This document shows, piece by piece, positions 3,858 to 36,540 of a DNA stretch of 64,000 bases. The stretch comes from Escherichia coli. Its GTDB lineage: Bacteria; Pseudomonadota; Gammaproteobacteria; Enterobacterales; Enterobacteriaceae. The notes beneath the pieces were generated by a model. That model was not told the origin of the DNA, searched no databases, and saw only the letters and a list, made by a program, of their open reading frames with translations. Both the position numbers and the translations under genes were made by a program. Each line of letters starts with the position of its first letter. The first letter of the stretch is position 1. The DNA lies in the NCBI RefSeq assembly GCF_003334815.1, contig NZ_QOWO01000004.1, one strand, 5' to 3'.

Positions 3858-3880
3858 TTAGATGCGTTTCAATTTGCCCG

Positions 3881-3970
3881 TTACTTCAACAAATCAATCA
3901 ACCGTAACAGAGCCACTAATAGCTCCAGTACAGCAATGAGCACGGTTAACTTTTGTGTCAGCGAGTCCAT
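3881..3970 (-). CDS. zorP: Type I toxin paralog, 29 aa MDSLTQKLTVLIAVLELLVALLRLIDLLK (ZorP-like)
   Basis: Same architecture as 3273..3362; one substitution (T3S); AAGGAG Shine-Dalgarno conserved. Confidence 0.75.
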   Translation of the reverse strand: MDSLTQKLTVLIAVLELLVALLRLIDLLK

Positions 3971-4151
3971 CCGCTCTCCTTATTAAGGAGCGCAACACCA
4001 GCACCTTACCCTTACACTGCCTGTCGATACTGGTTTACGTATGTTGGACCACGATGTTGCACTCCGGATCAGGGCACCACCTGCAGCACCCCCCGTCCGG
4101 TAGCCAGGACTTGAAATAGGTTCGATCCGGCGCAACGTCCCAACAGTCAGG

Positions 4152-4202
4152 ATTATAAATCTCATTATCTTAATTGCAACGGGGTCCAGCCGTGGTTATA
4201 AT
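4152..4202. promoter_or_regulatory. Back-to-back sigma70 promoters of unit 2
   Basis: Toxin -10 (complement of 4152..4157), shared -35 TTGCAA 4174..4179, sRNA -10 TATAAT 4197..4202; spacers 16 and 17 nt. Confidence 0.55.
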
Positions 4203-4208
4203 TCGTTC

Positions 4209-4291
4209 GTTGGAACACGATGTTGCACAGGCTGTGGTGTTAGGCCTGAAAATAGTAAATAAAAGAACCTGCCTCACCAGCAGGTTTTTTT
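4209..4291 (+). ncRNA. orzP: Antitoxin small RNA 2 (OrzP-like)
   Basis: 5' segment 4209..4228 GTTGGAACACGATGTTGCAC is complementary to the leader of toxin 2 at 4043..4062; intrinsic terminator at the 3' end. Confidence 0.6.
4266..4291 (+). terminator. Intrinsic terminator of sRNA 2
   Basis: Same AACCTGC...GCAGGTT stem and T-run as unit 1. Confidence 0.7.
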
Positions 4292-4402
4292 ATTTACTGC
4301 GATCTGCTTTCCAGATATTTTTTGCTCAAACAACTAATGCGCCAAACATTTATTGCGCGTAAAATATCGTTTATTTCATTAATACATTTCAGGGATGAAT
4401 AT

Positions 4403-5491: not shown

Positions 5492-5501
5492 GGAAAGATG
5501 C

Positions 5502-10904: not shown

Positions 10905-11028
10905 AATAGTGCTTTTTACTAAGAGTTCTACTCCAGTTCCGGACTGCTCACGCCACGGTATTAGGCATATCCTATATAGCCCCTGGTGAGAGTCACCAGT
11001 TCCTTGATTAAATAAAATGGAGTTTTAC

Positions 11029-11490
11029 ATGAAGGCTTTCAATAAGCTGTTTTCCCTCGTTGTTGCATCTGTTCTGGTTTTCTCTCTTGCTGGCTGCGGT
11101 GACAAAGAAGAATCGAAGAAATTCAGCGCCAATCTGAACGGCACTGAAATTGCCATTACCTATGTCTACAAAGGTGACAAGGTGCTTAAGCAATCTTCTG
11201 AAACCAAAATTCAATTTGCCTCCATTGGTGCAACCACCAAAGAAGATGCTGCCAAGACACTTGAGCCGTTAAGCGCCAAATACAAAAACATCGCGGGTGT
11301 TGAAGAAAAATTAACCTATACCGATACCTACGCGCAGGAAAACGTGACTATCGATATGGAAAAAGTGGATTTTAAAGCCCTGCAGGGTATTTCAGGAATC
11401 AACGTTTCTGCTGAAGATGCCAAAAAAGGTATCACTATGGCGCAAATGGAACTGGTGATGAAAGCCGCTGGTTTTAAAGAAGTGAAATAA
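11029..11490 (+). CDS. yehR: Lipoprotein (153 aa), signal peptide with LAGC lipobox
   Basis: ORF track 11017..11490 trimmed to the second ATG at 11029. Confidence 0.75.
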   Translation: MKAFNKLFSLVVASVLVFSLAGCGDKEESKKFSANLNGTEIAITYVYKGDKVLKQSSETKIQFASIGATTKEDAAKTLEPLSAKYKNIAGVEEKLTYTDTYAQENVTIDMEKVDFKALQGISGINVSAEDAKKGITMAQMELVMKAAGFKEVK

Positions 11491-11496
11491 TCTGTC

Positions 11497-11521
11497 GGCG
11501 GCCATGTTTCGCATGGCCGCC
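11497..11521. terminator. GC-rich 10-bp hairpin between convergent yehR and yehS; no clear U-tract
   Basis: GGCGGCCATG-TTTCG-CATGGCCGCC read directly. Confidence 0.4.
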
Positions 11522-11530
11522 ATACCCGTC

Positions 11531-12001
11531 TTAGCTTTTCTTCACATGCTGGCGCGCTGCCAGTCCACGCAGAAAATAACGTAAAAATTGATCGCCGCAT
11601 TCGCGGAAGTTTTTATGATCCGGTGCACGCATCATCGCCGTAATTTCCGGCATCGAAACGCGGAACTGCTGTTCGGTGAGGATCGCCAGAATGTCATCGG
11701 TTTTCAGCGAAAACGCGATGCGTAATTTTTTCAGCACGATGTTGTTATTAATGCGACGTTCCGGCTCCAGTGCCGGAGCAGACTCATCCTTGCCGCGTTT
11801 TTCATAAATCAGGCCATTGAGGAATGACGACAAAACAATGTCCGGACAACGCTGAAAACCCTCTTCGTCTTCTTTACGTAGCCAGACGGCGATCTGTTCC
11901 GCGGTGGCTTCGACATTACCCAGCGCCAGAATACGCACCAGGTCATTATTATTGGCTTTCAAAATGTAGCGCACGCTGCGCAGAATATCGTTACTTAGCA
12001 T
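11531..12001 (-). CDS. yehS: Small protein of unknown function (156 aa)
   Basis: ORF track 11531..12058 trimmed to the Met at 12001. Confidence 0.7.
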   Translation of the reverse strand: MLSNDILRSVRYILKANNNDLVRILALGNVEATAEQIAVWLRKEDEEGFQRCPDIVLSSFLNGLIYEKRGKDESAPALEPERRINNNIVLKKLRIAFSLKTDDILAILTEQQFRVSMPEITAMMRAPDHKNFRECGDQFLRYFLRGLAARQHVKKS

Positions 12002-12047
12002 GAGGCCTTCAGGTGTTGATGAGGCAAAAAGCCATTTTAGCAGTCTT

Positions 12048-12767
12048 TTACAGGCCAATCGCCTCTTTTAAGCTTTTCAGATAACGGCGGCTGACCGGCA
12101 CGGTTAAGCCATTACGCAAAATCAACTCGGCCTGGCCGTTATCTTCCAGACGAATCTCCTGTAAATGCGCGAGGTTAACCAGATACTGACGATGGCAGCG
12201 CAGTAGTGGTGTACGACTTTCCAGGGTACGTAATGTCAATTCGGTAAAGCCCTCTTTCCCTTCGTGGCTGGTAACGTAGACACCGCTCATCCGACTGCTG
12301 ACAAATGCCACATCTTTCATTTGCAGCAAATAAATCCGACTATGCCCAGTACAAGGGATAAATTTCAGCGCCTGTTGATTTTCTGGTAACAGCGAAACAT
12401 CCTGCTTGCTGCGTTCCTGCCGCAAACGCGCCAGCGTTTTCTCCAGTCGCGCTTCATCAATTGGCTTCAGCAGATAATCAAAGGCGTGTTCTTCAAAGGC
12501 TTTAATGGCGTATTCGTCAAACGCGGTGAGAAAAACAATATACGGACGATGTTCCGGGTCGAGCATCCCCACCATTTCCAGACCACTGATGCGCGGCATC
12601 TGGATATCGAGAAACAGCACATCCGGGCGCAGTTTATGCACCGCGCCGATCCCTTCCACGGCGTTTGAACACTCACCAACGATTTCAATATCGCTCTGCT
12701 CCTGCAAAAATACGCGCAGGTTCTCCCGTGCTAACGGTTCATCATCGACAATTAAGACTTTAATCAT
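12048..12767 (-). CDS. btsR: LytTR-family response regulator (239 aa)
   Basis: Receiver motif [12 protein letters not shown]; ATG 12767 overlaps the btsS stop. Confidence 0.85.
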
Positions 12768-14449
12768 GCCTCGTCCCTCCATGGTAGTCGTAACGTTATT
12801 CGGGTGTAACTATCAGGCTCACAGGCGACGCTTATCCCATAGTCATCGCCAAACCGTTCACGTAAACGCTTATCCACCAGATTCATCCCCAGCCCACTGG
12901 CATTGGTTACCGGTTGATACAAACCGGCATTGTCTTCGATCTCCAGCATTAAATGTTGCCCCTCACGTCGGGCGCTGATTGCCACTCGCCCTGTATCCAG
13001 CAGTTGTGATGTCCCATGTTTAATGGCGTTTTCCACTATCGGTTGCAGGGTAAACGCGGGCAATTGCTGCTGGGATAATTCTTGCGGAATAGCAATGTTG
13101 ACCTGCAACCGCGACTGGAAGCGCGCCTTTTCAATTTGCAGATAAGCATTCACATGTTCAATTTCGTCGGCGAGAGTAACAAACTCCGAAGGCCGCTTTA
13201 AGTTTTTGCGGAAAAAAGTGGAAAGATACTGCACCAGCTGGCTGGCCTGTTCGCTGTCGCGACGGATCACCGCTTTAATGGTGTTAAGCGCATTAAACAA
13301 AAAATGGGGATTCACCTGGGCGTGAAGCAGTTTGATCTCTGACTGGGTGAGCATCGCTTTTTGCCGCTCATATTGCCCGGCAAGGATCTGCGCCGAAAGC
13401 AGTTGCGCAATCCCCTCACCCAACGTGCGGTTGATTGAACTGAATAAACGGTTTTTGGCTTCATACAATTTGATGGTGCCCATCACCCGCTGATTTTCAC
13501 CACGCAACGGAATTACCAGCGTCGACCCCAGTTTGCATTGCGGATGCAAAGAGCAACGGTAAGGTACTTCGTTGCCATCAGCGTAGACCACTTCACCGGT
13601 TTCAATCGCTTTTAAGGTATAAGTCGAAGAAATCGGTTTGCCGGGTAAATGGTGGTCGTCACCAATTCCGGTAAAGGCTAGCAATTTCTCTCGATCGGTA
13701 ATCGCGACTGCACCAATATCCAGCTCCTGATACAGCACCTGTGCCACTTTCATGCTGTTCACTTCGTTAAACCCCTGGCGCAAAATGCCTTCCGTCGAGG
13801 CCGCCACTTTCAGCGCAGTGGCAGAAAAAGCTGAAGTGTATTTTTCAAACATCGCGCGTTTATCGAGCAATATACGCATAAACAGCGCCGCGCCGACGGT
13901 ATTGGTGACCATCATTGGCGCAGCAATATTACTCACCAGACGTACCGCATCTTCATAAGGTCGGGCGATCGCCAGGATGATCAACATTTGCACCATTTCA
14001 GCGACGAACGTGACGGCACCGGCGGTAATGGGGTTAAAGACTTTATCAGTGCGCCCGCGACGGATCAGAATGCTGTGTACCAGGCCGCCGAGCAATCCTT
14101 CAACGATGGTTGAGATCATGCAACTTAGCGCGGTCATGCCCCCCATCGAATATCGATGTAAGCCGCCGGTCAGACCAACCAGCCCACCGACGACCGGACC
14201 GCCGAGTAAGCCGCCCATTACCGCGCCTATCGCACGGGTATTGGCAATAGAATCGTCAATGTGCAACCCAAACCAGGTGCCCATGATGCAGAAGATGGAA
14301 AAGACGATGTAGCAGAGAAATTTATGCGGCAGACGAACCGTGACCTGCATTAACGGTATGAATAATGGCGTTTTACTCATTAACCACGCAATGACTAAAA
14401 AAACGCACATCTGCTGAAGCAGCAGCAACACCAGATTAAAATCGTACAT
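12764..14449 (-). CDS. btsS: LytS-type sensor histidine kinase (561 aa)
   Basis: Multi-pass membrane N-terminus and histidine-kinase core containing [10 protein letters not shown]. Confidence 0.85.
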
Positions 14450-14670
14450 ACCCGCAAACCACACTTCCCTTTAAAACGCGTAACATACATTGCCTGCGTT
14501 TAACTTTCTTTGAACTCTTGCAGAAAAATGAGAATTCGTGAGTACGATCACTCAAAATCGCCTGGCAAAAATAAAATCACCCTATAGATGCACAAAAAAC
14601 GGGCAAAACTACCTGGTTCGCAAAACTGCGTCTAAAGTTAAACCGGGACCTCGCGAGCAAGGGTGAGACG

Positions 14671-15402
14671 ATGGCGCTTTACACAATTGGTGAAGTGGCG
14701 TTGCTTTGTGATATTAATCCTGTCACGTTACGCGCGTGGCAGAGGCGTTACGGATTGCTGAAACCGCAACGGACAGACGGTGGTCATCGGCTGTTCAACG
14801 ATGCCGATATTGACCGGATCCGCGAGATCAAACGCTGGATCGACAACGGCGTGCAGGTCAGCAAAGTTAAAATGCTGCTCAGTAATGAAAATGTTGATGT
14901 GCAGAACGGCTGGCGCGATCAGCAAGAAACATTACTGACTTACCTGCAAAGCGGCAATCTACATAGCCTGCGAACGTGGATCAAAGAGCGCGGTCAGGAT
15001 TACCCCGCCCAGACACTCACCACACATCTGTTTATTCCTCTGCGCCGACGGCTTCAGTGCCAACAACCGACTCTCCAGGCGCTGCTGGCGATCCTCGACG
15101 GCGTACTGATCAACTACATCGCCATTTGTCTGGCTTCGGCACGTAAAAAACAGGGTAAAGATGCGCTGGTGGTTGGCTGGAATATTCAGGATACCACCCG
15201 TCTGTGGCTGGAGGGCTGGATTGCCAGTCAACAAGGATGGCGCATTGATGTCCTCGCCCACTCGCTCAATCAACTACGCCCTGAACTATTCGAAGGCCGT
15301 ACATTGCTGGTGTGGTGCGGTGAAAATCGAACCTCCGCCCAACAGCAGCAACTCACCAGTTGGCAAGAACAAGGCCATGATATTTTCCCACTCGGCATTT
15401 AA
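14671..15402 (+). CDS. mlrA: MerR-family transcriptional regulator (243 aa)
   Basis: N-terminal MerR helix-turn-helix (YTIGEVALLCDINPVTLRAWQRRYGL). Confidence 0.85.
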   Translation: MALYTIGEVALLCDINPVTLRAWQRRYGLLKPQRTDGGHRLFNDADIDRIREIKRWIDNGVQVSKVKMLLSNENVDVQNGWRDQQETLLTYLQSGNLHSLRTWIKERGQDYPAQTLTTHLFIPLRRRLQCQQPTLQALLAILDGVLINYIAICLASARKKQGKDALVVGWNIQDTTRLWLEGWIASQQGWRIDVLAHSLNQLRPELFEGRTLLVWCGENRTSAQQQQLTSWQEQGHDIFPLGI

Positions 15403-15461
15403 TGATTCGTTAACAAATGCGCTTTACTGTACAATCCTTTCGTTAACATAAGGAGTGCATT

Positions 15462-15569
15462 ATGCGCATAGCTAAAATTGGGGTCATCGCCCTGTTCCTG
15501 TTTATGGCGTTAGGCGGAATTGGTGGCGTCATGCTCGCAGGTTATACCTTTATTTTGCGTGCTGGCTAA
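15462..15569 (+). CDS. yohO: 35-aa small membrane protein [35 protein letters not shown]
   Basis: ATG 15462 with AAGGAG 6 nt upstream; 3' end overlaps convergent yehW by 20 nt. Not in the ORF track. Confidence 0.65.
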
Positions 15570-16281
15570 GCGCCTGCACCAGCCTTTCAAACAGGCGGTC
15601 TGCGATGATCGCCGCCAGTGCCACCAGTAACGCCCCCTGGATCACATACGCGGTATTAAATCCGCTAAGCCCGATGATGATGGGCGTACCCAGCGTGCTG
15701 GCCCCTACCGTTGAGGCGATCGTCGCCGTACCAATGTTGATAATCACCGAAGTTCGCACGCCCGCCAGAATCACCGGAGCCGCCAGCGGTAGCTCGACCT
15801 TACGCAGTCGCTGACCACGACTCATTCCCATACCCTTCGCAACTTCTGTCACGCTGGCATCAATCGCTCCCAGCCCGGCAAGTGTCGCCTGCAGGACGGG
15901 CAGCACGCCGTATAGGATCAAGGCGATAATCGCTGGTTGCAGACCAAAGCCGATCACCGGAACAGCAATCGCCAGCACCGCAACGGGCGGAAAAGTCTGC
16001 CCAACGGCGGCAATAGTTTCCACCAGTGGGCGAAATTCCGCGCCCCACGGGCGAGTGACAGCAATTCCGGCACCAGTACCAATGATCACCGCAAACAAAC
16101 TCGAAATTCCCACCAGCCAGAAATGAGCCAGTGCCAGAGCTGCAAAACTTTCTTGCTGATAAACGGGTCGTGGCAGTTGTGGGAACAAGGCAGCAAACAG
16201 CGGCTGGCTGTAAGGCAGCCAGAAAATCAGTGCCACAAACAAAGCAATGAGCCAGAACAGCGGATCGCGCAACATCTTCAT
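15550..16281 (-). CDS. yehW: ABC transporter permease (glycine betaine/osmoprotectant system)
   Basis: ORF track; hydrophobic multi-pass protein; synteny. Confidence 0.85.
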
Positions 16282-16285
16282 ACGC

Positions 16286-17212
16286 TTACGCCTCCACCAG
16301 CAGATCCTGAAAATGCAGCGTGCCGCTAGGCTGGCCCTGCGTGTTCACCACCGGCAGCACCTCGCATCCCCGCGCGACAAACAGAGAGAGCGCATCGCGT
16401 AGCGTCATCTCTTCTGCCAGTGCCTCACCTTCTGCCCGTTCTTCGCGACGCACGTAATCCGCCACACTACGTAACGAAAGCAGGCGCACACCCAGTTCAC
16501 TACGTCCAAAAAACTGGCGGACAAAATCATTCGCCGGACGAGTCAGCATCGTCAGCGGATTGCCCTGCTGCACCACTTCACCGTGATCCATCAATACCAG
16601 ATGTTCTGCCAGCCGTAGCGCCTCATCAATATCATGAGTGACCAGCACAATAGTGCGCCCCAGCAAACGGTGAATGCGCGTCATCTCTTGTTGCAACGCG
16701 CCGCGCGTTACCGGGTCCAGTGCGCCAAAAGGTTCATCCATCAGTAAGACTTGCGGATCGGCAGCCAGTGCGCGCGCCACTCCCACACGTTGCTGCTGAC
16801 CACCGGAAAGCTGATGCGGATAACGCTCACGCAAATTTGACTCCAGCCCCAGTAGCGCCATTAATTCGTCGATACGATCGTCAATCCGTGCCCGCGACCA
16901 TTTTTGTAATTGCGGCACGGTAGCGATGTTTTGCGCCACGCTCCAGTGGGGGAACAGGCCAATAGATTGAATGGCATAGCCCATCCGGCGGCGCAACTCC
17001 AATACTGGCAGCGAGCGAATTTCTTCTCCGGCAAAGCGGATCTCTCCGCTGTCATGCTCCACCAGGCGGTTAATCATTTTCAGGGTGGTGGATTTGCCGG
17101 AGCCAGATGTGCCAATCAGCACCGAAAAACTCCCTTCCTGAAAATTGAGATTGAGATCGTTAACGGCTTTTTGTGCGCCGAACAGTTTGCTGACATGGCT
17201 AAATTCAATCAT
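16286..17212 (-). CDS. yehX: ABC transporter ATP-binding protein
   Basis: Walker [10 protein letters not shown] and ABC signature LSGGQQQR. Confidence 0.9.
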
Positions 17213-18362
17213 TACGTTTCACCTTCAGCAGTGCGATAAGCAAATCGAACAGCGCGTCGGTAAGCACCGCCAGAACAATTACCGGGATCACCCCCAGCAA
17301 CACTAAATCAATGGCGCTGCTTAGCAGCCCCTGGAAAACCAGCGCACCAAAACCGCCTGCGCCGATTAACGCCGCAATCACCGCCATACCTACAGTTTGC
17401 ACCATCACCACCCGCAGGCTGCGCAGAAATACCGGTAACGCCAGTGGTAACTGAACATGCAGGAATCGCCGCGCCCCGCTCATGCCCATCGCTCTGGCGC
17501 TCTCCAGCACATCGCGCGGGATCTGGTTCAAGCCGACTACCACGCCGCGCACCAGCGGCAGCAAGGCATAGAGCACCAGCGCAATCAGTGCGGGTGTCAT
17601 TCCGGTTCCTGCTATGCCGAGCTTCCCCAGCCACGGAAAGGCCGTCACCAGCGCGGCAAGCGGCGCAATCAACAGGCCAAAGAGCGCCACCGAAGGCACG
17701 GTCTGAATGACATTGAGCAGAGAAAAAATTGCCCCCTGCCGAGCAGTGGAAAAGTAGCACCAGATGCCCAACGGCACACCAATCACTAACGCAGGCAGCA
17801 CCGCACCAAACAGCAACGTCAGATGTTGTGCCAGCGCGTCGTCAAACACATCCTGACGGTTGGCGTATTCTTTCATTAGTGAGAGATCGTTAAGCGTGCC
17901 GGAGTACAGCAACCACAGCGGAATAATGGCAATCTGCATATGCAACAACCAGCGCCACAGCGGATGCGTGGAGATTCGGCGGATGGCATCGCTACAGGCC
18001 AGCAATGCCAGCGCCGCAGCCAGCCAGAAACCACTGCCGAGGCTGGTACGCGCCAGCGCACTGCCATTTTGCGCCAGTTGGGTCGCCGCCTTTCCAGCTC
18101 CCCACACCAGCAATACGAAGACGAATTGCGCCAGAATGAGTGCACAAATGCTGCCTTTTTTACCGGGAATAAAACAGGCCGTCAGCCAGGCGCAACCAAC
18201 GCCCACCAGCATCCAGATCGTTTGCGGCCACAGCTGCCAGAGATGACGCCCCTCACCCGAAACTAAACGATTAGGCGCGTAACTGATAAACGGCAGCGCC
18301 GCTGCGATTGCCGTCAGCAACAGCAGCAGCGCCAGAACAGGATTAATACGGAAATAAGTCAC
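17205..18362 (-). CDS. yehY: ABC transporter permease
   Basis: ORF track; apparent GTG start; overlaps the yehX start by 8 nt. Confidence 0.85.
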
Positions 18363-18368
18363 GGGAAA

Positions 18369-19286
18369 TTACTTCGTCCACCCTTTTTGTTTCAGGTAGT
18401 CGGCAGCCACTTTTTTGGCATCCAGTCCTTCCACAGCAATGCTGGCATTCAGTTGCTGCAATGTTTTTGCATCGAGGCTGGCGAAGACTGGCTGTAGCCA
18501 CTGTGCCATTTGCGGATACTCCCTCAACACCGACTCACGCACCACTGGTGCAGGCGCGTAGATAGGTTGCACACCTTGCGGATCGCTTAAGGTTTGCAGC
18601 CCCAGCGCCGCTACCGGGCCGTCAGTGCCGTAAGCCATTGCAGCATTAACGCCAGAGGTTTGCTGGGCAGCGGCTTTGATCGTCACCGCCGTGTCGCCAC
18701 CAGCCAGTGACAGCAACTGATCCTGACCGAGCTTAAAGCCATAGGCTTTTTCAAACGCGGGTAACGCATCGGCGCGTTCGATAAACTCTGCCGAGGCTGC
18801 CAGTTTGAAGGTGCCGCCCTCTTGCAGATAACGACTCAGGTCGGCAAGCGAAGTGAGTTTATTTTTCTCTGCCACATCCTGACGCACGGCGATAGTCCAG
18901 GTGTTATTTGCAGGCGCGGGCGTCAGCCAGATTAACTTGTTGTGCTCCGAATCGAGCTTTTTGACTTTCTCGTAACCTTGCTGCGCGTTTTTCCACGCTG
19001 CATCGTTTTCATCTTTAAAGAAGAAAGCGCCATTGCCGGTATATTCCGGATAGATATCCAGTTCACCGGAAGTAATCGCCCCGCGCACCACAGGAGTCGT
19101 TCCGAGTTGCACTTTATTCACCGTCGGTACGCCGTGGCTTTCCAGCACCTGCAAAATGATATTGCCGAGTAGCGCACCTTCGGTATCGATTTTTGAACCG
19201 ACTTTAACGGGGGAAGCCGCCTGTAGCGGCAGGCTCACGGCTGCCAACATAACCAGTGAACCTGCCCAGAGCTTTAAGAGTGGCAT
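18369..19286 (-). CDS. osmF: Periplasmic substrate-binding protein of the osmoprotectant ABC system
   Basis: Signal peptide (MPLLKLWAGSLVMLAAVSLPLQA); synteny with yehYXW. Confidence 0.85.
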   Translation of the reverse strand: MPLLKLWAGSLVMLAAVSLPLQAASPVKVGSKIDTEGALLGNIILQVLESHGVPTVNKVQLGTTPVVRGAITSGELDIYPEYTGNGAFFFKDENDAAWKNAQQGYEKVKKLDSEHNKLIWLTPAPANNTWTIAVRQDVAEKNKLTSLADLSRYLQEGGTFKLAASAEFIERADALPAFEKAYGFKLGQDQLLSLAGGDTAVTIKAAAQQTSGVNAAMAYGTDGPVAALGLQTLSDPQGVQPIYAPAPVVRESVLREYPQMAQWLQPVFASLDAKTLQQLNASIAVEGLDAKKVAADYLKQKGWTK

Positions 19287-19429
19287 GATGCTTTCCTCAT
19301 TCTTTTACTGTTGTTTTCAGCGAATTAAGAGAAAAGCATAGTTGATAATGGCGGGGTTAGCTTGAGCGGAAGGATTCAGTTGCAGAATCAGATAAATACT
19401 TAAGAGGCATATTCGGTCCGGCGTTTCCT

Positions 19430-19466
19430 GCCGGATGCGGCGCGAGCGCCTTATCCGGCCTACAAA
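19430..19466. repeat. REP element
   Basis: GCCGGATGCGGCGCGAGCGCCTTATCCGGCCTACAAA matches the REP consensus as I recall it. Confidence 0.8.
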
Positions 19467-19505
19467 GGGCGAAAATTCAGCAAGTTAAGATATGAACATC
19501 AGGCA

Positions 19506-19528: not shown

Positions 19529-19537
19529 ACAAAAGCA

Positions 19538-21835
19538 TTACAGCAACTCAAACTCGCCTTTCTTAACGCGTGCGGAATCAGTGCCGATAAAGACATTGAA
19601 CTTGCCAGGCTCGGCGTCATATTTCATCTGTTGATTCCAGAACTTCAGCGCCTCAATATCAATCGGGAAGCTGACGGTCTGAGTTTCGCCCGGCTTCAGG
19701 GTGATTTTCTCAAAGCCTTTCAGCTGTTTCACAGGGCGACTCATGGAAGCCGTCACATCCTGCAAGTACATCTGCACTACCGTGGCACCCTCGCGCTTAC
19801 CGGTGTTCGTCACCTGCACGCTGGCCGTCACTTTGCCGTCACGCTTCATGGTCGGCGCAGAAAGTTTCACATCAGAGACGGTGAAAGTGGTATAGCTCAG
19901 ACCATAGCCGAACGGATAAAGCGCCCCGTTAGCTTCATCAAAATAACGCGAAGTGTATTTGTTCGGCTTGTCGGCATTATACGGACGACCGGTGTTCAGA
20001 TGGCTGTAGTACACCGGGATCTGCCCGACAGAACGCGGGAAGGACATCGGCAGCTTGCCGGACGGGTTGTAATCGCCAAACAACACATCGGCAATTGCAT
20101 TACCGCCTTCAGTCCCCGCAAACCAGGTTTCCAGAATCGCATCAGCCTGCTGATCTTCTTTCACCAGCGCCAGCGGACGCCCGTTCATAAGCACCAGCAC
20201 CAGCGGTTTACCGGTGGCTTTCAGCGCCGCAATCAAGTCACGTTGGCTTTGCGGAATAGTGATATCGGTCCGGCTGGAGGCTTCGTGCGCCATCCCCTGT
20301 GCTTCACCGACTACAGCCACCACCACATCAGATTGTTTCGCCGTCTGCACCGCTTCATCAATCATCTCTTGCGGCGAACGCGGATCGACTTTGACCGCTT
20401 CTTCATACTGATTCAGGAAATCGATAATGCCTTTGTCACTGGTAACGTTCGCCCCTTTGGCATACAGCACTTTACCGTTTTCACCGACGGCATTTTTAAT
20501 CCCGGTCAGTACGGTCACGGATTGATCGGCAACACCGGCTGCGGACCAGCTGCCCATCACGTCACGTTTACTGTCCGCCAGTGGCCCAACCACCGCAATG
20601 GTGGCCGATTTTTTCAGCGGTAACGTTTCGAGACGGTTTTTCAGCAACACCAAGCTTTCGCGCGCCACTTCACGCGCTTCTTTACGGTGCAGGCGGCTTT
20701 CGGCATTGGTATCCACCGGGTCAGACTCTTTCGGCCCCAAATGGCTGTATGGGTCGTTAAACAACCCCATATCATATTTAACGTTCAGTACATGGCGGGC
20801 AGCATCGTCCAGCTCTGCCATCGTCACTTTGCCGGATTTAATCAACCCAGGCAGATACTTCGAGTAGTACTCGTCGCTCATGCTCATGTTGATTCCGGAT
20901 TTCAGCGCCACGCGCACCGCATCTTCCGGGTCTGCCGCCGTGCCATGTTTAATCAGCTCTTTGATTGCACCGTGATCGGAAACGGTGATGCCTTTAAAGC
21001 CCCACTGGTCGCGCAGAACATCTTTCAGCAGCCAGGAATCGGAGGTGGCTGGCGTGCCGTTCAGCGAGTTCAGCGCCACCATCACCGCGCCGCTGCCTGC
21101 GTCCAGCCCCGCTTTGTACGGCGGCATATAATCATTAAACAGGCGCTGCGGACTCATATCGACGGTGTTGTACTCTTTACCGCCTTCTACCGCGCCGTAT
21201 GCGGCAAAGTGTTTGACGCTGGTCATCACCGAGTAGCGATCTGCCGGGCTTTTACCCTGCATCGCTTCCACCATGGTTTTACCCATTGTTGAGGTGAGAT
21301 ACGTATCTTCGCCAAAACCTTCGGAAGCACGTCCCCAGCGCGGATCGCGCGAGACATCGACCATCGGTGCCCAGGTCATATTCAGGCCATCATCTGCCGC
21401 TTCATAAGCAGAGACACGTCCGACCGTTTTCACTGCATCGAGGTTAAAAGACGAGGCCAGACCGAGGCTAATCGGGAACACCGTGCGCTGACCGTGCAGC
21501 ACGTCGTAAGCAAAGAAAAGAGGAATTTTCAGGCGGCTTAATTCCATCACCTGATCCTGCATGGCGCGGATATCCTGACGGGTTACGGTGTTGAAAATCG
21601 CCCCAACCTGACCGTCTTTGATCATCTCGCGGATCGCCTCTTTCGGGTTATCCGGGCCGACGCTGATTAAGCGCAGCTGACCAATTTTCTCATCAACTGT
21701 CATTTTCTTAAGCAGTTCGGTGACGAACGCATCCCGCGCTTCGGGCGTTAATGGATGGTTGCCGAATAAATCATCCGCCAGTGCTGGCTGCAGGGCCAGA
21801 CTCACCGCGATTCCTACTGAACATAGCCATTTCAT
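19538..21835 (-). CDS. bglX: Periplasmic beta-glucosidase, glycoside hydrolase family 3 (765 aa)
   Basis: ORF track 19538..21907 trimmed to the Met at 21835 (MKWLCSVGIAVSLA signal peptide). Confidence 0.9.
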   Translation of the reverse strand: MKWLCSVGIAVSLALQPALADDLFGNHPLTPEARDAFVTELLKKMTVDEKIGQLRLISVGPDNPKEAIREMIKDGQVGAIFNTVTRQDIRAMQDQVMELSRLKIPLFFAYDVLHGQRTVFPISLGLASSFNLDAVKTVGRVSAYEAADDGLNMTWAPMVDVSRDPRWGRASEGFGEDTYLTSTMGKTMVEAMQGKSPADRYSVMTSVKHFAAYGAVEGGKEYNTVDMSPQRLFNDYMPPYKAGLDAGSGAVMVALNSLNGTPATSDSWLLKDVLRDQWGFKGITVSDHGAIKELIKHGTAADPEDAVRVALKSGINMSMSDEYYSKYLPGLIKSGKVTMAELDDAARHVLNVKYDMGLFNDPYSHLGPKESDPVDTNAESRLHRKEAREVARESLVLLKNRLETLPLKKSATIAVVGPLADSKRDVMGSWSAAGVADQSVTVLTGIKNAVGENGKVLYAKGANVTSDKGIIDFLNQYEEAVKVDPRSPQEMIDEAVQTAKQSDVVVAVVGEAQGMAHEASSRTDITIPQSQRDLIAALKATGKPLVLVLMNGRPLALVKEDQQADAILETWFAGTEGGNAIADVLFGDYNPSGKLPMSFPRSVGQIPVYYSHLNTGRPYNADKPNKYTSRYFDEANGALYPFGYGLSYTTFTVSDVKLSAPTMKRDGKVTASVQVTNTGKREGATVVQMYLQDVTASMSRPVKQLKGFEKITLKPGETQTVSFPIDIEALKFWNQQMKYDAEPGKFNVFIGTDSARVKKGEFELL

Positions 21836-22030
21836 ATGGATTTTTCTTCCTCTGTTGCCCGACGAGGCAGCGAAAATGGTGCAAAAACCGTAGTTTGCCA
21901 TAAGCATGATGGAGAGAGAAAAAGAATGCTCAGTTTATTGTCTGAATTTTCAAAATATTCACTCGCTGAATTGTCATACAAGGCGCTATTCTAGTTTGTG
22001 ATATTTTTTCGCCACCACAAGGAGTGGAAA

Positions 22031-23746
22031 ATGTCTTCCATGACAACAACTGATAATAAAGCCTTTTTGAATGAACTTGCCCGTCTGGTCGGTCATTCAC
22101 ACCTGCTCACCGATCCCGCAAAAACGGCCCGCTATCGCAAGGGCTTCCGTTCTGGTCAGGGCGACGCGCTGGCTGTCGTTTTCCCTGGCTCACTACTGGA
22201 ATTGTGGCGGGTGCTGAAAGCCTGCGTCACCGCCGACAAAATTATTCTGATGCAGGCTGCCAATACAGGCCTGACCGAAGGATCGACGCCAAACGGTAAC
22301 GGCTATGATCGCGATGTCGTTATCATCAGCACCCTGCGTCTCGACAAGCTGCACGTTCTTGGCAAGGGCGAACAGGTGCTGGCCTATCCGGGCACCACGC
22401 TCTATTCGCTGGAAAAAGCCCTCAAACCGCTGGGACGCGAACCGCACTCAGTGATTGGATCATCGTGTATAGGCGCATCGGTCATCGGCGGTATTTGTAA
22501 CAACTCCGGCGGCTCGCTGGTGCAACGTGGCCCGGCGTATACCGAAATGTCGTTATTCGCGCGTATAAATGAAGACGGCAAACTGACGCTGGTGAACCAT
22601 CTGGGGATTGATCTGGGCGAAACGCCGGAGCAGATCCTTAGCAAGCTGGATGATGATCGCATCAAAGATGACGATGTGCGTCACGATGGTCGTCACGCCC
22701 ACGATTATGACTATGTCCACCGCGTTCGTGATATTGAAGCCGACACGCCCGCACGTTATAACGCCGATCCTGATCGGTTATTTGAATCTTCTGGTTGCGC
22801 CGGGAAGCTGGCGGTCTTTGCAGTACGTCTTGATACCTTCGAAGCGGAAAAAAATCAGCAGGTGTTTTATATCGGCACCAACCAGCCGGAAGTGCTGACC
22901 GAAATCCGCCGTCATATTCTGGCTAACTTCGAAAATCTGCCGGTTGCCGGGGAATATATGCACCGGGATATCTACGATATTGCGGAAAAATACGGCAAAG
23001 ACACCTTCCTGATGATTGATAAGTTAGGCACCGACAAGATGCCGTTCTTCTTTAATCTCAAGGGACGCACCGATGCGATGCTGGAGAAAGTGAAATTCTT
23101 CCGTCCGCATTTTACTGACCGTGCGATGCAAAAATTCGGTCACCTGTTCCCCAGCCATTTACCGCCGCGCATGAAAAACTGGCGCGATAAATACGAGCAT
23201 CATCTGCTGTTAAAAATGGCGGGCGATGGCGTGGGCGAAGCCAAATCGTGGCTGGTGGATTATTTCAAACAGGCCGAAGGCGATTTCTTTGTCTGTACGC
23301 CGGAGGAAGGCAGCAAAGCGTTTTTACACCGTTTCGCCGCTGCGGGCGCAGCAATTCGTTATCAGGCGGTGCATTCCGATGAAGTCGAAGACATTCTGGC
23401 GTTGGATATCGCTCTGCGGCGTAACGACACCGAGTGGTATGAGCATTTACCGCCGGAGATCGACAGCCAGCTGGTGCACAAGCTCTATTACGGCCATTTT
23501 ATGTGCTATGTCTTCCATCAGGATTACATAGTGAAAAAAGGCGTGGATGTGCATGCGTTAAAAGAACAGATGCTGGAACTGCTACAGCAGCGCGGCGCGC
23601 AGTACCCTGCCGAGCATAACGTCGGTCATTTGTATAAAGCACCGGAGACGTTGCAGAAGTTCTATCGCGAGAACGATCCGACCAACAGCATGAATCCGGG
23701 GATCGGTAAAACCAGTAAACGGAAAAACTGGCAGGAAGTGGAGTAA
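22031..23746 (+). CDS. dld: FAD-dependent D-lactate dehydrogenase (571 aa)
   Basis: ORF track trimmed to ATG 22031 (GGAGTGG upstream). Confidence 0.9.
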   Translation: MSSMTTTDNKAFLNELARLVGHSHLLTDPAKTARYRKGFRSGQGDALAVVFPGSLLELWRVLKACVTADKIILMQAANTGLTEGSTPNGNGYDRDVVIISTLRLDKLHVLGKGEQVLAYPGTTLYSLEKALKPLGREPHSVIGSSCIGASVIGGICNNSGGSLVQRGPAYTEMSLFARINEDGKLTLVNHLGIDLGETPEQILSKLDDDRIKDDDVRHDGRHAHDYDYVHRVRDIEADTPARYNADPDRLFESSGCAGKLAVFAVRLDTFEAEKNQQVFYIGTNQPEVLTEIRRHILANFENLPVAGEYMHRDIYDIAEKYGKDTFLMIDKLGTDKMPFFFNLKGRTDAMLEKVKFFRPHFTDRAMQKFGHLFPSHLPPRMKNWRDKYEHHLLLKMAGDGVGEAKSWLVDYFKQAEGDFFVCTPEEGSKAFLHRFAAAGAAIRYQAVHSDEVEDILALDIALRRNDTEWYEHLPPEIDSQLVHKLYYGHFMCYVFHQDYIVKKGVDVHALKEQMLELLQQRGAQYPAEHNVGHLYKAPETLQKFYRENDPTNSMNPGIGKTSKRKNWQEVE

Positions 23747-24716: not shown

Positions 24717-24889
24717 GATGAGCATTCAGATAGTGGTTCACGCGCACGGGTTGCGCACCGCCGGAGTAAGGATTTACTGAGGCTAGCGACGCCATCATAA
24801 CGAGCAAAAAGTGCGATCGTCAAAGGAGAATCGTGAGGAAATGCTGCATTGCTGACATTTACGCCAGCAATGCAACGTCAAAGAACTTT

Positions 24890-26354: not shown

Positions 26355-27116
26355 CTATTCTGGGTTGAACTGTGGATTCGCCAACATAAAGCCGCCATCC
26401 ACTATCAACGACTGCCCGGTGGTGTAATTTGCGCCCTCCGAACAAAGCCACACCACCAGGCTGGCAATCTCATGCGTTGCGCCAAAACGCCGCAAGGGAA
26501 TCGAAGGCTCCGCGTCGGGCTTCACGTCGCTGTCATCCATGCCATTCATTGGCGTGGCGATCGCCCCAGGCGCGACTGCGTTCACCAAAATCTTATGCCT
26601 GACCAGCTCCAGCGCCATCGCTTTGGTTAACCCACCGAGCGCATGTTTAGCGGCTGTGTAGGCGCTGGCATCCGGCAGCGGCGTATGTTCATGTACCGAC
26701 GTAATGTTGATGATGCGACCGCCCTGCCCTTGTTTCACCATCTGACGAGCCGCAATTTGCGAGCATAAGAATGCACCATCGACATCAACGGTAAAAATCT
26801 TGCGCCACTCATCAAAAGCCATATCAAGAAACGGCGCTTTGGTCATTGCACCCGCATTATTCACCAGCACATCAATGCGCCCCAGCCGTTGAATGAGTTT
26901 CTCCAGCGCCAGTGCCCCTTCTGGTAGATTGCCGAGATCCAGCTGCACGATCTCCGCACGTACGCCGTGGCTAACTACCTCACGCGCGGTATCTTTTGCC
27001 CCTTCTTCATCTGAGTGCCAGGTAATACCAATATCAAACCCCTGCTGCGCCAGTAATAACGCGCACTCTTTGCCGATCCCCGAATCGGAGGCGGTAATAA
27101 TCGCAACCTGTGCCAT
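26355..27116 (-). CDS. yohF: Short-chain dehydrogenase/reductase (253 aa)
   Basis: Rossmann motif TASDSGIG near the N-terminus. Confidence 0.85.
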   Translation of the reverse strand: MAQVAIITASDSGIGKECALLLAQQGFDIGITWHSDEEGAKDTAREVVSHGVRAEIVQLDLGNLPEGALALEKLIQRLGRIDVLVNNAGAMTKAPFLDMAFDEWRKIFTVDVDGAFLCSQIAARQMVKQGQGGRIINITSVHEHTPLPDASAYTAAKHALGGLTKAMALELVRHKILVNAVAPGAIATPMNGMDDSDVKPDAEPSIPLRRFGATHEIASLVVWLCSEGANYTTGQSLIVDGGFMLANPQFNPE

Positions 27117-27168
27117 CGAGTTCTCCACTTAACGCTGAATAAACGTTAAGTATAGAAGGCGCATATCA

Positions 27169-28605
27169 TCAGCGTTTGTAACCCCCGCCCAACGCACCAG
27201 TGAGTTGAATGGAGGCATCCAGCCACTGCCCTTGCAATAACAGGCCATTGGCCCGCTCACGCAGCGCGGGGATTCTGGCTTCGCTGACGCGGGAACCAGC
27301 AATGATGCCCGCGTTAAAGCGCGCCTGCGCAAGACCTACCACACGCAAGGCATCGCGCTCAATTTGCGCCTGATGCTGGTTTTTCTCCGCCAGTGTCTGA
27401 ACCTGACTGGCTGCCCGCGCCACGTCATTCACCGCTTCAACCACCGCTTTGTTGTAGCTGGCGATAGACAAGTTGCTTTCGGCTTTTGCGATATCGAGAT
27501 TGGCGTTAAGACGACCACTATCGAAAATGGGTAGCGTCAGGCCTGCCGTAACGCCCATTTGCTGCGCGGAATGACGGAACAGATCGCTTAAGTGCAACGC
27601 ATCCTGTTGCAGGAAGGCCATCAGGTTGATGTCAGGATAAAATGCCGCTTTTGCCGCATCAATGGTGCTTAGCGATGACTCAACGTACCAGTGCGCCGCC
27701 TGCAAATCTGCCCGCCGGGCCAGTAAGGAGTACCCCAGTTCATCAGGAAGCTGGCTTGCCACTTTCGGCAACGCGACCGGTTTAAGCTTCAATGACTTTG
27801 TCTGGTTATTTGTAAGTGCGCTTAACCGTGCCTCAATAATTTTCATTTTCCCCGCGACATCGTTGAGCTGCTGCCGGGTTTTGCTGGCATTAATATCGGT
27901 TTCCACACCTTCAACTGAAGAAGTAATCCCGTTCTGATATAGCTGGCGATCGGTCGCGATAATGGTGTTCTGCTCTTTTTCTATTTGCTGCAAGACCGTG
28001 TTTAACGCCGCCTGGGTTTGCCACTCCCAGTACAGGCGGGCTACGCTGCCAGCCAGCAATTGGCGGGTTTGCTCGCGTTCCGCCGCCCGTGCTTTAACCG
28101 TACCCAGGCGGGCAGTAACCTCCGCCCGATTCTTTCCCCAGATATCGAGATGCCAGCCCGCCGTTAAGCCAAAAGTACCGTTGGTGTACCACGGGCCGGT
28201 CGTACCTGCGGCCGGATCGTTCAGAGCAAACGGCCCCATTAAGCCTTCTGCCGACATTTTTTGCCGCTCCATATCCGCCGAAAAGTCGATCTGCGGACCA
28301 TCCTGAGTGGCAACTGCCTTCGCCTGGGCTTCAGCTAGCTGAATGCGCTGTTCAGCCACCTGCATATCCGGTGCGTTCTGTAGTGCATTGTTAATTAAGG
28401 AAGTGAGTTGATTATCGTGATACTCCAGCCACCATTGGCTGTCTGGCCAACCATTTTTCAGCGCCGTGGGTAATGCGGTGTCAACTTGTGCAGCGGGCGT
28501 TTGCTGGCTTAACGCCTGGCGGGTTTCATGCATAGGCGCACACCCGGCCAGCATCAGTAACAGCGGAAAACAGGCGATGGCTGGATAAAAGGAATCACGA
28601 TTCAT
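27169..28605 (-). CDS. mdtQ: Outer-membrane efflux factor lipoprotein, intact frame of 478 aa
   Basis: ORF track 27169..28695 trimmed to the Met at 28605; lipoprotein signal with LAGC. Uninterrupted here, whereas I recall the K-12 copy being a pseudogene. Confidence 0.75.
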   Translation of the reverse strand: MNRDSFYPAIACFPLLLMLAGCAPMHETRQALSQQTPAAQVDTALPTALKNGWPDSQWWLEYHDNQLTSLINNALQNAPDMQVAEQRIQLAEAQAKAVATQDGPQIDFSADMERQKMSAEGLMGPFALNDPAAGTTGPWYTNGTFGLTAGWHLDIWGKNRAEVTARLGTVKARAAEREQTRQLLAGSVARLYWEWQTQAALNTVLQQIEKEQNTIIATDRQLYQNGITSSVEGVETDINASKTRQQLNDVAGKMKIIEARLSALTNNQTKSLKLKPVALPKVASQLPDELGYSLLARRADLQAAHWYVESSLSTIDAAKAAFYPDINLMAFLQQDALHLSDLFRHSAQQMGVTAGLTLPIFDSGRLNANLDIAKAESNLSIASYNKAVVEAVNDVARAASQVQTLAEKNQHQAQIERDALRVVGLAQARFNAGIIAGSRVSEARIPALRERANGLLLQGQWLDASIQLTGALGGGYKR

Positions 28606-28828
28606 GGGGGAATAATCAGGTAAGAAAAGGTGCGCGGAGATTACCGTGTGTTGCGATATATTTTTTAGTTTCGCGTGGCAATACATCAGTGGCAATAAAA
28701 CGACATATCCAGAAAAATATACACTAAGTGAATGATATCTTCCGATTTATCTTAATCGTTTATGGATAACGGCAAAGGGCTTCGTTTTTTCCTATACTTA
28801 TTCAGCACTCACAAATAAAGGAACGCCA

Positions 28829-28912
28829 ATGAAAATTATACTCTGGGCTGTATTGATTATTTTCCTGATTGGGCTACTGGTGGTGACTGGCGTATTTAAG
28901 ATGATATTTTAA
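28829..28912 (+). CDS. yohP: 27-aa small membrane protein MKIILWAVLIIFLIGLLVVTGVFKMIF
   Basis: ATG 28829 with AAAGGAA upstream; not in the ORF track. Confidence 0.65.
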   Translation: MKIILWAVLIIFLIGLLVVTGVFKMIF

Positions 28913-36354: not shown

Positions 36355-36540
36355 GACGCATCCGGCATTTGGTTCCTGTCGCCGGATGCGGCTTGAACGC
36401 CTTATCCGGCCTACAAAACCATACAAATCAGTATGTTGAGCTTATTGTAGGCCGGATAAAACGCGCCAGCGTTGCATCCGGCATTTGGCTCCTGTTGCCG
36501 GATGCGGCGTGAACGCCTTATCCGGCCTACAAAACCACAC
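36355..36540. repeat. BIME: cluster of REP elements in alternating orientation
   Basis: Three GCCGGATGCGGC...TTATCCGGCCTACAAA-type units between preA and mglC. Confidence 0.85.

What the first reader, a model, noticed from the sequence alone, without database searches (positions are those of the whole stretch)
27169..28605. mdtQ is an intact 478-codon reading frame and appears orphaned
The outer-membrane efflux factor gene between yohF and yohP reads through uninterrupted with a lipoprotein signal, whereas I recall the K-12 copy being annotated as a disrupted pseudogene. No inner-membrane pump or membrane-fusion genes are adjacent, so if functional it would need partners encoded elsewhere. 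Together with the toxin-antitoxin insertion this points to a non-K-12 source strain.
Basis: partly seen in the sequence, partly recalled or inferred. Interest (0 to 1): 0.35.

Follow-up and report, generated by a model that had tools for sequence, protein, structure and literature searches.

The report
Intact wild-type mdtQ outer-membrane channel gene
This is the normal, working copy of mdtQ, an outer-membrane efflux-channel gene that stands alone in nearly all E. coli and their relatives; only the K-12 laboratory lineage carries it broken by a one-base deletion, so the finding is correct but ordinary.

Summary
Window 27169-28605 (minus strand) is an uninterrupted 478-codon ORF with a lipoprotein signal (LLMLAG|C, Cys22). 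It scores as the MdtQ equivalog (1024 bits, cut-off 650), has two OEP repeats, and folds like solved outer-membrane factors; VceC is the best match.

MG1655 b2139 is an annotated pseudogene, and the only lesion is a 1-bp deletion (A5 to A4) at codons 49/50, window 28454-28458.

The K-12 allele is the exception. It occurs in 355 of 5,426 complete E. coli genomes. The 60 rows sampled from these are K-12 laboratory derivatives by name or genome size, with one exception. The intact allele occurs in 4,941.

mdtQ is an orphan here and in 77 other Enterobacteriaceae species, at the same site (dusC ... mdtQ-(yohF)-yohD-yohC). It is intact in 75 of those 78 loci and under strong purifying selection (dN/dS 0.03-0.05 within Escherichia).

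A 2025 review already says mdtQ is encoded alone and is in the core genome despite its pseudogene label.

The one mildly new inference concerns the partner pump. The nearest homologues that are not orphans sit in YtcA-MFP-FUSC-OMF operons, which points to FUSC-type pumps such as AaeAB or YdhJK. This is untested.

The parts
27169..28605 (-). mdtQ (formerly yohG) coding sequence: 478 codons plus a TGA stop, intact
   Evidence: ORF list and sequence. NCBIfam NF008524 MdtQ equivalog, 1024 bits against a 650 cut-off. Pfam OEP x2 at residues 69-266 and 293-473. 100% nucleotide identity to RefSeq mdtQ genes annotated as intact.
28540..28605 (-). Lipoprotein signal peptide (residues 1-22) with lipobox L-A-G-C. 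Cys22 is the predicted lipidation site and is followed by Ala-Pro.
   Evidence: Read directly from the translation. A lipobox-type motif followed by Cys-Ala-Pro is conserved in orthologues from 78 Enterobacteriaceae loci. Cys22 is invariant in the 41-sequence alignment.
28454..28458 (-). A5 run (codons 49-50, CTG AAA AAT) that is A4 in K-12. This is the site of the K-12 frameshift.
   Evidence: Pairwise alignment with a K-12-type genome and with the MG1655 locus. It is the only indel in 44.5 kb of window-versus-MG1655 alignment.
28606..28829 (-). mdtQ upstream/yohP divergent intergenic region. It is conserved in Escherichia, has no canonical Shine-Dalgarno before the ATG, and contains a direct repeat GTGGCAATA (plus strand) at 28675-28683 and 28689-28697.
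   Evidence: Alignment A1 of six Escherichia loci, 94% mean column identity. The consensus scan found no sigma-70 promoter in this interval.
27117..27168 (-). 52-bp mdtQ-yohF spacer with an 11-bp-stem hairpin and no U-tract. It is not a consensus terminator, so co-transcription with yohF is possible.
   Evidence: The terminator scan found nothing here. RNA fold of 27100-27185: the hairpin is present, but the region's z-score of -1.1 is not significant.

Best explanation
This is the ordinary wild-type allele of mdtQ, a chromosomal core gene of E. coli and of most Enterobacteriaceae. It encodes a NodT/OprM-type outer-membrane factor (OMF) lipoprotein.

Inferred from family knowledge: the precursor is exported by Sec, lipidated on Cys22, and sorted to the outer membrane by Lol (the residue after Cys is Ala, not Asp). 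It then trimerises into a 12-stranded beta-barrel with a long alpha-helical periplasmic tunnel. That tunnel docks onto a periplasmic adaptor protein and inner-membrane transporter encoded elsewhere, giving an exit duct, as TolC does.

Shown here: the K-12 'pseudogene' results from one lineage-specific 1-bp deletion in an A5 run. That deletion separates the signal peptide from the rest of the protein.

Partner (inference, about 0.3): MdtQ probably serves FUSC/PET-type pumps with AaeA-like adaptors. In E. coli these would be AaeAB and/or YdhJK, which have no OMF of their own, or possibly MdtNO. The reasons are that its closest curated family is MdtP and that its nearest non-orphan homologues lie in YtcA-MFP-FUSC-OMF operons.
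For: Identity and fold: MdtQ equivalog at 1024 bits; two OEP repeats; AF2 model with pLDDT 82.9 showing four beta-strands and long helical hairpins; Foldseek top hits are VceC, CusC, OprN, CmeC, OprJ, SilC and OprM at E about 1e-22 and TM 0.76-0.89 normalised to the target; best sequence match among solved structures is VceC at 1e-39.

Wild-type status: mdtQ is present at >=80% coverage in 5,391 of 5,426 complete genomes. The intact A5 43-mer is in 4,941 genomes. The K-12 A4 43-mer is in 355; the 60 evenly sampled rows are MG1655, BW25113, DH5alpha, DH1, J53, C600, MC4100, JM109, TG1 and similar, with one exception.

Functional constraint: dN/dS is 0.03-0.05 within Escherichia and at most 0.13 against other genera. 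The ORF and lipobox are intact in 75 of 78 species loci. The Klebsiella orthologue YohG was among the proteins identified in an outer-membrane/exoprotein proteomic study (PMC4404324).

Orphan status is ancient: the dusC...mdtQ-(yohF)-yohD-yohC order is kept across genera. The extra DNA in Klebsiella, Enterobacter and Kluyvera is a bglGFB-like PTS operon, not a pump.

Partner type: MdtP is the next-best curated family at 356 bits, against 97 for CusC and 54 for TolC. Of five informative contexts, four are FUSC-type: P0125 follows an MdtO-like permease, and P0127, P0128 and P0129 lie in YtcA-MFP-FUSC-OMF operons.

Literature: mdtQ is encoded independently, is in the core genome despite its pseudogene label, and null mutants are reported as slightly more susceptible to puromycin, acriflavine and tetraphenylarsonium (PMC11762307).
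Against: No direct evidence of expression or function in this strain. No consensus sigma-70 promoter was found in the intergenic region, and there is no obvious Shine-Dalgarno sequence before the ATG, so expression may be low or conditional.

Against the FUSC-partner idea: AaeB-dependent phenotypes are seen in MG1655, which lacks functional MdtQ (PMC11481567), so AaeAB does not strictly need it. One close homologue (P0131) sits with an MFS transporter and an EmrA-type adaptor. The closest solved structure, VceC, belongs to the VceCAB pump, which from my own knowledge is MFS-type.

The drug-susceptibility phenotypes attributed to an mdtQ/yohG deletion are hard to reconcile with a frameshifted K-12 gene if the parent strain was K-12. 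I could not retrieve the primary paper.

Independent truncations occur in some lineages: Salmonella Typhi and Paratyphi A (PMC9241588), C. koseri, one C. amalonaticus, one Leclercia, and E. coli PSS-11. The gene is therefore dispensable in some niches.
Confidence: 0.9

Rival explanations
1. MdtQ is a back-up or condition-specific exit duct for MFS-type (EmrAB/EmrKY-like), RND or ABC tripartite pumps, partly redundant with TolC, and not a partner of FUSC-type pumps.
For: The closest solved structure by sequence and fold is VceC, the OMF of the VceCAB pump, which is MFS-type from my own knowledge. Homologue P0131 (39% identity) lies between an MFS transporter and an EmrA-type adaptor. The reported substrates (puromycin, acriflavine, tetraphenylarsonium) are typical multidrug-pump substrates, not aromatic acids.
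Against: Four of five informative neighbourhoods of the nearest homologues are FUSC-type. The nearest curated family is MdtP, whose operon partner MdtO is a FUSC-family permease. From my own knowledge, the E. coli RND, MFS and ABC tripartite pumps studied so far depend on TolC.
Confidence: 0.25
2. The reading frame is intact but the gene is cryptic: it is not expressed or has no present function, and is simply on its way to decay as in K-12.
For: No consensus promoter or Shine-Dalgarno sequence was found. The gene has no partner genes. It has been lost independently by frameshift or truncation in K-12, PSS-11, some Salmonella Typhi/Paratyphi A, C. koseri and Leclercia. Published knock-out phenotypes are weak.
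Against: dN/dS of 0.03-0.05 within Escherichia and at most 0.13 across genera is incompatible with neutral drift. The ORF, the lipobox and its chromosomal position are conserved in 75 of 78 species loci. The gene is present in 5,391 of 5,426 E. coli genomes. The Klebsiella orthologue was detected in outer-membrane proteomics.
Confidence: 0.07
3. The intact frame in this window is an artefact (a homopolymer sequencing error) or a secondary reversion of a K-12-type frameshift.
For: The lesion lies in a homopolymer, which is prone to slippage and to sequencing errors. From 22304 onward the window differs from MG1655 by only 11 SNPs.
Against: The A5 allele is the state in 4,941 genomes and in every other Escherichia species examined. 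The A4 allele is confined to K-12 derivatives in the 60 rows sampled, apart from one odd record. Several genomes are 100% identical to the window across mdtQ.
Confidence: 0.02

Closest known systems
MdtQ (YohG) of E. coli, e.g. RefSeq WP_001078139.1; O157 orthologue UniProt Q8X659
   Same: The nucleotide sequence is identical to annotated mdtQ genes in several complete genomes. It has the same neighbours, the same length and the same lipobox. It is this gene.
   Different: Nothing differs from the wild-type allele. Compared with K-12 b2139 it has one extra A (A5 versus A4 at codons 49/50) and one synonymous SNP at codon 475.
MdtP (YjcP/SdsP), the OMF of the mdtNOP operon of E. coli
   Same: It is the closest curated family: the NCBIfam MdtP model scores 356 bits over residues 17-477. 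Both are NodT-type lipoprotein OMFs.
   Different: The score is below the MdtP equivalog cut-off of 597 bits, so MdtQ is a paralogue and not MdtP. mdtP lies in an operon with the adaptor MdtN and the FUSC-type permease MdtO (MdtO is FUSC-type), whereas mdtQ has no partner genes nearby.
VceC of Vibrio cholerae (PDB 1yc9)
   Same: It is the best solved-structure match by sequence (E 1e-39) and by fold (Foldseek E 3e-23, TM 0.86 normalised to the target).
   Different: Only about 25% identity. From my own knowledge, vceC is encoded together with vceA and vceB, an MFS pump and its adaptor.
TolC of E. coli
   Same: Both are outer-membrane exit ducts encoded away from the pumps they serve. They share the overall fold (review PMC11762307).
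   Different: About 12-13% identity. From my own knowledge TolC is not a lipoprotein; MdtQ has a lipobox. TolC's partners are known, MdtQ's are not.
OMFs of YtcA-MFP-FUSC-OMF (fusaric-acid / aromatic-acid type) efflux operons, e.g. Bucl8-FusCDE of Burkholderia and FuaABC of Stenotrophomonas
   Same: The nearest non-orphan homologues of MdtQ (35-42% identity) lie in this type of operon. Bucl8 also has VceC as its closest solved structure (PMC7682875).
   Different: MdtQ has no FUSC, MFP or YtcA gene nearby in any of the 78 Enterobacteriaceae loci examined.

Membership tests
MdtQ equivalog (NCBIfam NF008524) | Whole-protein score above the curated cut-off (650 bits) with an end-to-end alignment | tested here: met
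   1024.4 bits, residues 1-478 on profile 1-478
MdtQ equivalog (NCBIfam NF008524) | Orthologous chromosomal position (dusC/yohP - mdtQ - yohF - yohD - yohC) | tested here: met
   Same gene order as MG1655 and other E. coli and as 77 other Enterobacteriaceae species
Outer membrane factor (OMF) family, NodT/OprM lipoprotein subfamily (TIGR01845; Pfam PF02321) | Two tandem OEP repeats | tested here: met
   PF02321 at residues 69-266 (2e-17) and 293-473 (1e-12). TIGR01845 scores 274 bits against a cut-off of 210.
Outer membrane factor (OMF) family, NodT/OprM lipoprotein subfamily (TIGR01845; Pfam PF02321) | N-terminal lipoprotein signal peptide with a lipobox Cys | tested here: met
   MNRDSFYPAIACFPLLLMLAG|C. 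The Cys is invariant in alignment A2. A lipobox followed by CAP is conserved in orthologues. Actual lipidation was not tested.
Outer membrane factor (OMF) family, NodT/OprM lipoprotein subfamily (TIGR01845; Pfam PF02321) | Protomer fold of four beta-strands plus long alpha-helical hairpins, superposable on solved OMFs | tested here: met
   AF2 model with pLDDT 82.9; strands at 105-116, 139-153, 325-336 and 348-357; helices of up to 73 residues. Foldseek finds VceC, CusC, OprN, OprM and others at E about 1e-22.
Outer membrane factor (OMF) family, NodT/OprM lipoprotein subfamily (TIGR01845; Pfam PF02321) | Homotrimeric channel in the outer membrane that couples to a periplasmic adaptor and an inner-membrane transporter | not testable with these tools
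   Needs biochemistry or structure determination. Only a monomer was modelled.
Operon-encoded tripartite efflux system (OMF adjacent to MFP and transporter genes) | MFP and inner-membrane transporter genes next to the OMF gene | tested here: not met
   None within about 15 kb on either side in the window or in matching genomes, nor within the roughly 8-kb flanks of the orthologues in 78 species loci. mdtQ is an orphan OMF, as TolC is.
OMFs serving FUSC/PET-type pumps (MdtNOP / AaeXAB-like, YtcA-MFP-FUSC-OMF operons) | Closest relatives are encoded with FUSC permeases and AaeA-type adaptors | tested here: inconclusive
   Four of five informative neighbourhoods of the nearest 35-42% identical homologues are FUSC-type and one is MFS/EmrA-type. 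MdtQ itself has no linked pump, so this is a lead and not a membership.

The most novel reading that the evidence does not exclude
MdtQ is the natural outer-membrane exit duct for one or both of E. coli's FUSC-type pumps that have no OMF of their own (AaeAB, YdhJK). Nearly all efflux genetics has been done in K-12, where mdtQ is frameshifted, so this tripartite assembly and its physiological role (export of aromatic-acid, fusaric-acid-like or other metabolites) has been overlooked.
Probability: 0.2. Interest if true: 0.5.

Novelty: already known. Interest (0 to 1): 0.1.

Why it matters
It matters little as a discovery. An intact, stand-alone mdtQ is the standard state of E. coli and is described in the literature.

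It is a useful reminder that K-12 is a natural mdtQ mutant. Negative or odd results on this channel from K-12 and the Keio collection do not carry over to wild strains. A repaired K-12 allele (A4 to A5) would be a clean tool for finding the channel's partner pump and substrates, which remain unknown.

Tried and rejected
1. I looked for a hidden partner pump in the extra 5-6 kb between dusC and mdtQ in Klebsiella, Enterobacter, Kluyvera and Raoultella. It is a bglG-bglF-bglB-like beta-glucoside PTS operon, sometimes with a porin-like ORF, and not an efflux system (consistent with PMC2646131).

2. I scanned for a sigma-70 promoter or an intrinsic terminator around mdtQ. There is no promoter hit in the intergenic region. 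The only minus-strand hit lies inside yohP, about 300 bp upstream. There is no terminator between mdtQ and yohF. The hairpin in the mdtQ-yohF spacer is not statistically unusual.

3. I tried to read the primary knock-out paper (Sulavik et al. 2001; PMC id recalled from memory) to learn which strain was used. It is not held in the library.

4. Rfam finds nothing in or next to mdtQ.

5. I considered whether the 508-aa TTG-initiated ORF is the real product. I rejected this because the family profile, the RefSeq annotation and the conserved orthologue N-termini all start at the ATG at 28605.

6. I considered ribosomal or transcriptional slippage rescuing the K-12 allele. The A4 run is too short and is not a canonical slippery heptamer, so I rejected this as a significant route (inference only).

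Full report
**1. The observation**

The minus strand of window 27169-28695 is one open reading frame. Starting from the ATG at 28605 it encodes 478 residues and ends in TGA at 27169-27171.

Three results support the ATG start. The NCBIfam MdtQ equivalog model aligns residues 1-478 to profile positions 1-478 at 1024 bits, against a cut-off of 650. [quoted passage not shown] Orthologues share the N-terminus.

The N-terminus MNRDSFYPAIACFPLLLMLAG|CAP is a lipoprotein signal with a lipobox. Cys22 is invariant in a 41-sequence alignment that reaches down to about 27% identity.

**2. The K-12 comparison**

MG1655 b2139 (mdtQ) is annotated as a pseudogene of 1436 bp. PGAP annotates K-12-type genomes as 'frameshifted'.

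Aligning the window gene with the K-12-type copy shows two differences:
- A 1-bp deletion in an A5 run (CTG AAA AAT becomes CTG AAA AT.) at codons 49/50, window 28454-28458.
- A synonymous GGT/GGG change at codon 475.

The deletion puts a stop 20 codons later. It separates the signal peptide and lipobox from the rest of the protein, which remains open in the other frame.

Across window 19504-64000 against MG1655 this is the only indel in 44.5 kb, alongside 36 SNPs. From 22304 onward there are only 11 SNPs. The lesion is therefore a recent, lineage-specific event on an otherwise near-identical background.

**3. How unusual is an intact copy?**

It is not unusual.
- mdtQ is found at >=80% coverage in 5,391 of 5,426 complete E. 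coli genomes, always on the chromosome.
- A 43-mer centred on the lesion was used so that every 28-base megablast seed must span the A-run. The K-12 (A4) form is in 355 genomes.
- The 60 rows sampled evenly from those 355 are MG1655, BW25113, DH5alpha, DH1, J53, C600, MC4100, JM109, TG1, HMS174, NCM3722 and the like. The one exception is a record labelled EcN_Sk, whose mdtQ is K-12-like in sequence.
- The intact (A5) form is in 4,941 genomes, including O157 Sakai and BL21.
- Sporadic independent lesions exist, such as a 1-bp deletion at gene position 575 in strain PSS-11 and a truncated copy in STEC379.

**4. What it is**

- Pfam finds two OEP repeats.
- The nearest solved structure by sequence is VceC (1yc9, E 1e-39), followed by OprM, CmeC, SilC, CusC, OprN and MtrE.
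- An AlphaFold2 model built on 41 homologues has mean pLDDT 82.9 and pTM 0.77. It shows four beta-strands and very long helical hairpins, which is the OMF protomer.
- Foldseek against the PDB returns VceC, CusC, OprN, CmeC, OprJ, SilC and OprM at E about 1e-22. TolC scores lower, at about 1e-13 to 1e-14.

Every sequence- and fold-level defining feature of a NodT/OprM-type outer-membrane-factor lipoprotein that could be tested is met. Trimerisation, lipidation and transport could not be tested.

**5. Orphan status and conservation**

In the best-matching genome and in MG1655, the roughly 64 kb corresponding to the window contain no adaptor (MFP) or tripartite-pump transporter gene. The ABC systems nearby (yehWXY-osmF, mglBAC) are importers.

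A scan of one genome per species returned 79 loci, 78 of them Enterobacteriaceae. In all of these, mdtQ lies at the same place, between dusC and yohD-yohC, with yohF present or absent.

The extra 5-6 kb between dusC and mdtQ in Klebsiella, Enterobacter, Kluyvera and Raoultella is a bglGFB-like PTS operon, not a pump (also PMC2646131).

The ORF is full-length in 75 of the 78 loci. The exceptions are one C. amalonaticus, C. koseri NCTC10786 and Leclercia NCTC13032. The lipobox followed by Cys-Ala-Pro is conserved.

Nei-Gojobori dN/dS against the window allele is 0.03-0.05 within Escherichia and at most 0.13 against other genera, where dS is saturated. This is a gene under strong purifying selection and not a decaying relic. 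Its stand-alone arrangement predates the divergence of these genera.

**6. What is already known**

A 2025 review of TolC (PMC11762307) makes the following points:
- E. coli has four OMFs: TolC, CusC, MdtP and MdtQ (formerly YohG).
- mdtQ 'is encoded independently'.
- Its function and promoter are unknown.

The Klebsiella orthologue YohG was among the proteins identified in an outer-membrane/exoprotein proteomic study (PMC4404324). Independent truncations occur in some Salmonella Typhi and Paratyphi A isolates (PMC9241588). The finding therefore restates known facts.

**7. Likely mechanism and partner**

The general mechanism follows from established OMF biology and is inferred, not shown here. 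The steps are Sec export, lipidation at Cys22, Lol sorting to the outer membrane, and trimerisation into a beta-barrel plus alpha-tunnel. The tunnel's periplasmic tip engages the hairpins of an adaptor protein bound to an inner-membrane transporter.

For the partner I used homologue neighbourhoods.
- In a library clustered at 50% identity, identity to MdtQ falls from 60% (the enterobacterial cluster) straight to about 42%.
- Among the next-best full-length representatives, P0125 is preceded by an MdtO-like FUSC permease.
- P0127, P0128 and P0129 each lie in a YtcA / AaeA-type adaptor / FUSC permease / OMF operon.
- P0131 lies between an MFS transporter and an EmrA-type adaptor.
- P0126 sits on a short contig and is uninformative.

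MdtP is by far the closest curated family (356 bits). Together these results place MdtQ in the OMF branch that serves FUSC/PET-type pumps.

From my own knowledge, E. coli has two such adaptor-permease pairs without an OMF of their own, AaeAB and YdhJK. I rate MdtQ serving one of these at about 0.2-0.3.

Two points count against it. AaeB-dependent phenotypes are seen in MG1655, which lacks MdtQ (PMC11481567). The reported MdtQ-related substrates are cationic drugs, not aromatic acids.

**8. Unresolved**

If the published yohG knock-out phenotypes were obtained in K-12, they are hard to reconcile with a gene frameshifted at codon 50. I could not access the primary paper.

Expression signals are unclear. 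No consensus sigma-70 promoter was found in the conserved intergenic region. There is no obvious Shine-Dalgarno sequence upstream of the ATG (CCTGATTATTCCCC-ATG). A conserved 9-bp direct repeat spaced 14 bp apart might be an operator.

**9. Verdict**

The feature is the ordinary wild-type state of a known core gene and is already described. Interest is low. The only forward-looking element is the testable suggestion that FUSC-type pumps are MdtQ's partners, and that K-12's lesion has hidden this from laboratory genetics.

Noticed in passing
window 3183-4330: There is a tandem duplication (about 608-bp period, 93% identity) of a zor-orz-like type I toxin-antitoxin module. It has two 29-aa ZorO-like toxin ORFs (3273-3362 and 3881-3970, minus strand) and two Rfam OrzO-P antitoxin RNAs (3608-3681 and 4216-4291, plus strand). 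In MG1655 only DNA from about 4111 onward aligns, and window 3183-4110 has no collinear K-12 counterpart.
   Followed up: partly
window 1-22303 versus 22304-64000: Divergence from MG1655 is mosaic: about 98% identity over 1-19475, a cluster of 25 SNPs in 19531-22303 (bglX-dld), and then only 11 SNPs plus the mdtQ indel over 41.7 kb. This suggests a recombination boundary near bglX/dld in a close phylogroup-A relative of K-12.
   Followed up: partly
window 28675-28697: A conserved direct repeat GTGGCAATA (plus strand; TATTGCCAC on the mdtQ strand) occurs twice with 14-bp spacing, about 70-90 bp upstream of the mdtQ ATG. It is nearly invariant in six Escherichia loci and could be a regulator-binding site. 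No canonical Shine-Dalgarno sequence precedes the ATG.
   Followed up: no
window 27127-27151: A perfect 11-bp-stem hairpin (ACTTAACGTTT-ATTCA-GCGTTAAGT on the minus strand) lies in the 52-bp mdtQ-yohF spacer, immediately before the yohF ribosome-binding site. It has no U-tract, so it is not a consensus terminator. It could affect yohF translation or mRNA stability.
   Followed up: partly
L035 2789-7059; L072 3410-7640 (Klebsiella michiganensis, Enterobacter asburiae): A bglG-bglF-bglB-like beta-glucoside PTS operon lies between dusC and mdtQ in Klebsiella, Enterobacter, Kluyvera and Raoultella, and is absent at this site in Escherichia, Salmonella and Citrobacter. yohF is also missing from many genera (Citrobacter, Klebsiella, Kluyvera).
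   Followed up: partly
L095 (NZ_CP172017.1, strain 'EcN_Sk') 1374-2809: A genome labelled as a Nissle-type strain carries the K-12 A4 frameshift, and its mdtQ differs from the window by only 2 bases. Reference Nissle 1917 mdtQ is only 97.7% identical to the window. This suggests K-12-derived DNA at this locus or a mislabelled or mixed assembly.
   Followed up: partly
L094 (NZ_AP027694.1, strain PSS-11) 301-1736: There is an independent 1-bp deletion at mdtQ gene position 575 (CTGTACTGG becomes CTGT-CTGG), annotated as frameshifted. Otherwise the gene is identical to the window allele. This may be a true sporadic loss or an assembly error.
   Followed up: partly
window 24721-24801 (-) and 36450-36527 (-): Rfam matches above the gathering score: the Peptidase-S11 cis-regulatory RNA motif in the pbpG-yohC intergenic region (upstream of pbpG), and naRNA4 (a REP-derived nucleoid-associated RNA) near preA/mglC, next to 80-bp inverted REP-like repeats.
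   Followed up: no
MG1655 yehQ (L005 13101-14945) versus strain 52F4 yehQ (L004 3805-5805): yehQ is annotated as 1845 bp in MG1655 but 2001 bp in the genome that best matches the window. This may be another K-12-specific truncation in the same neighbourhood.
   Followed up: no
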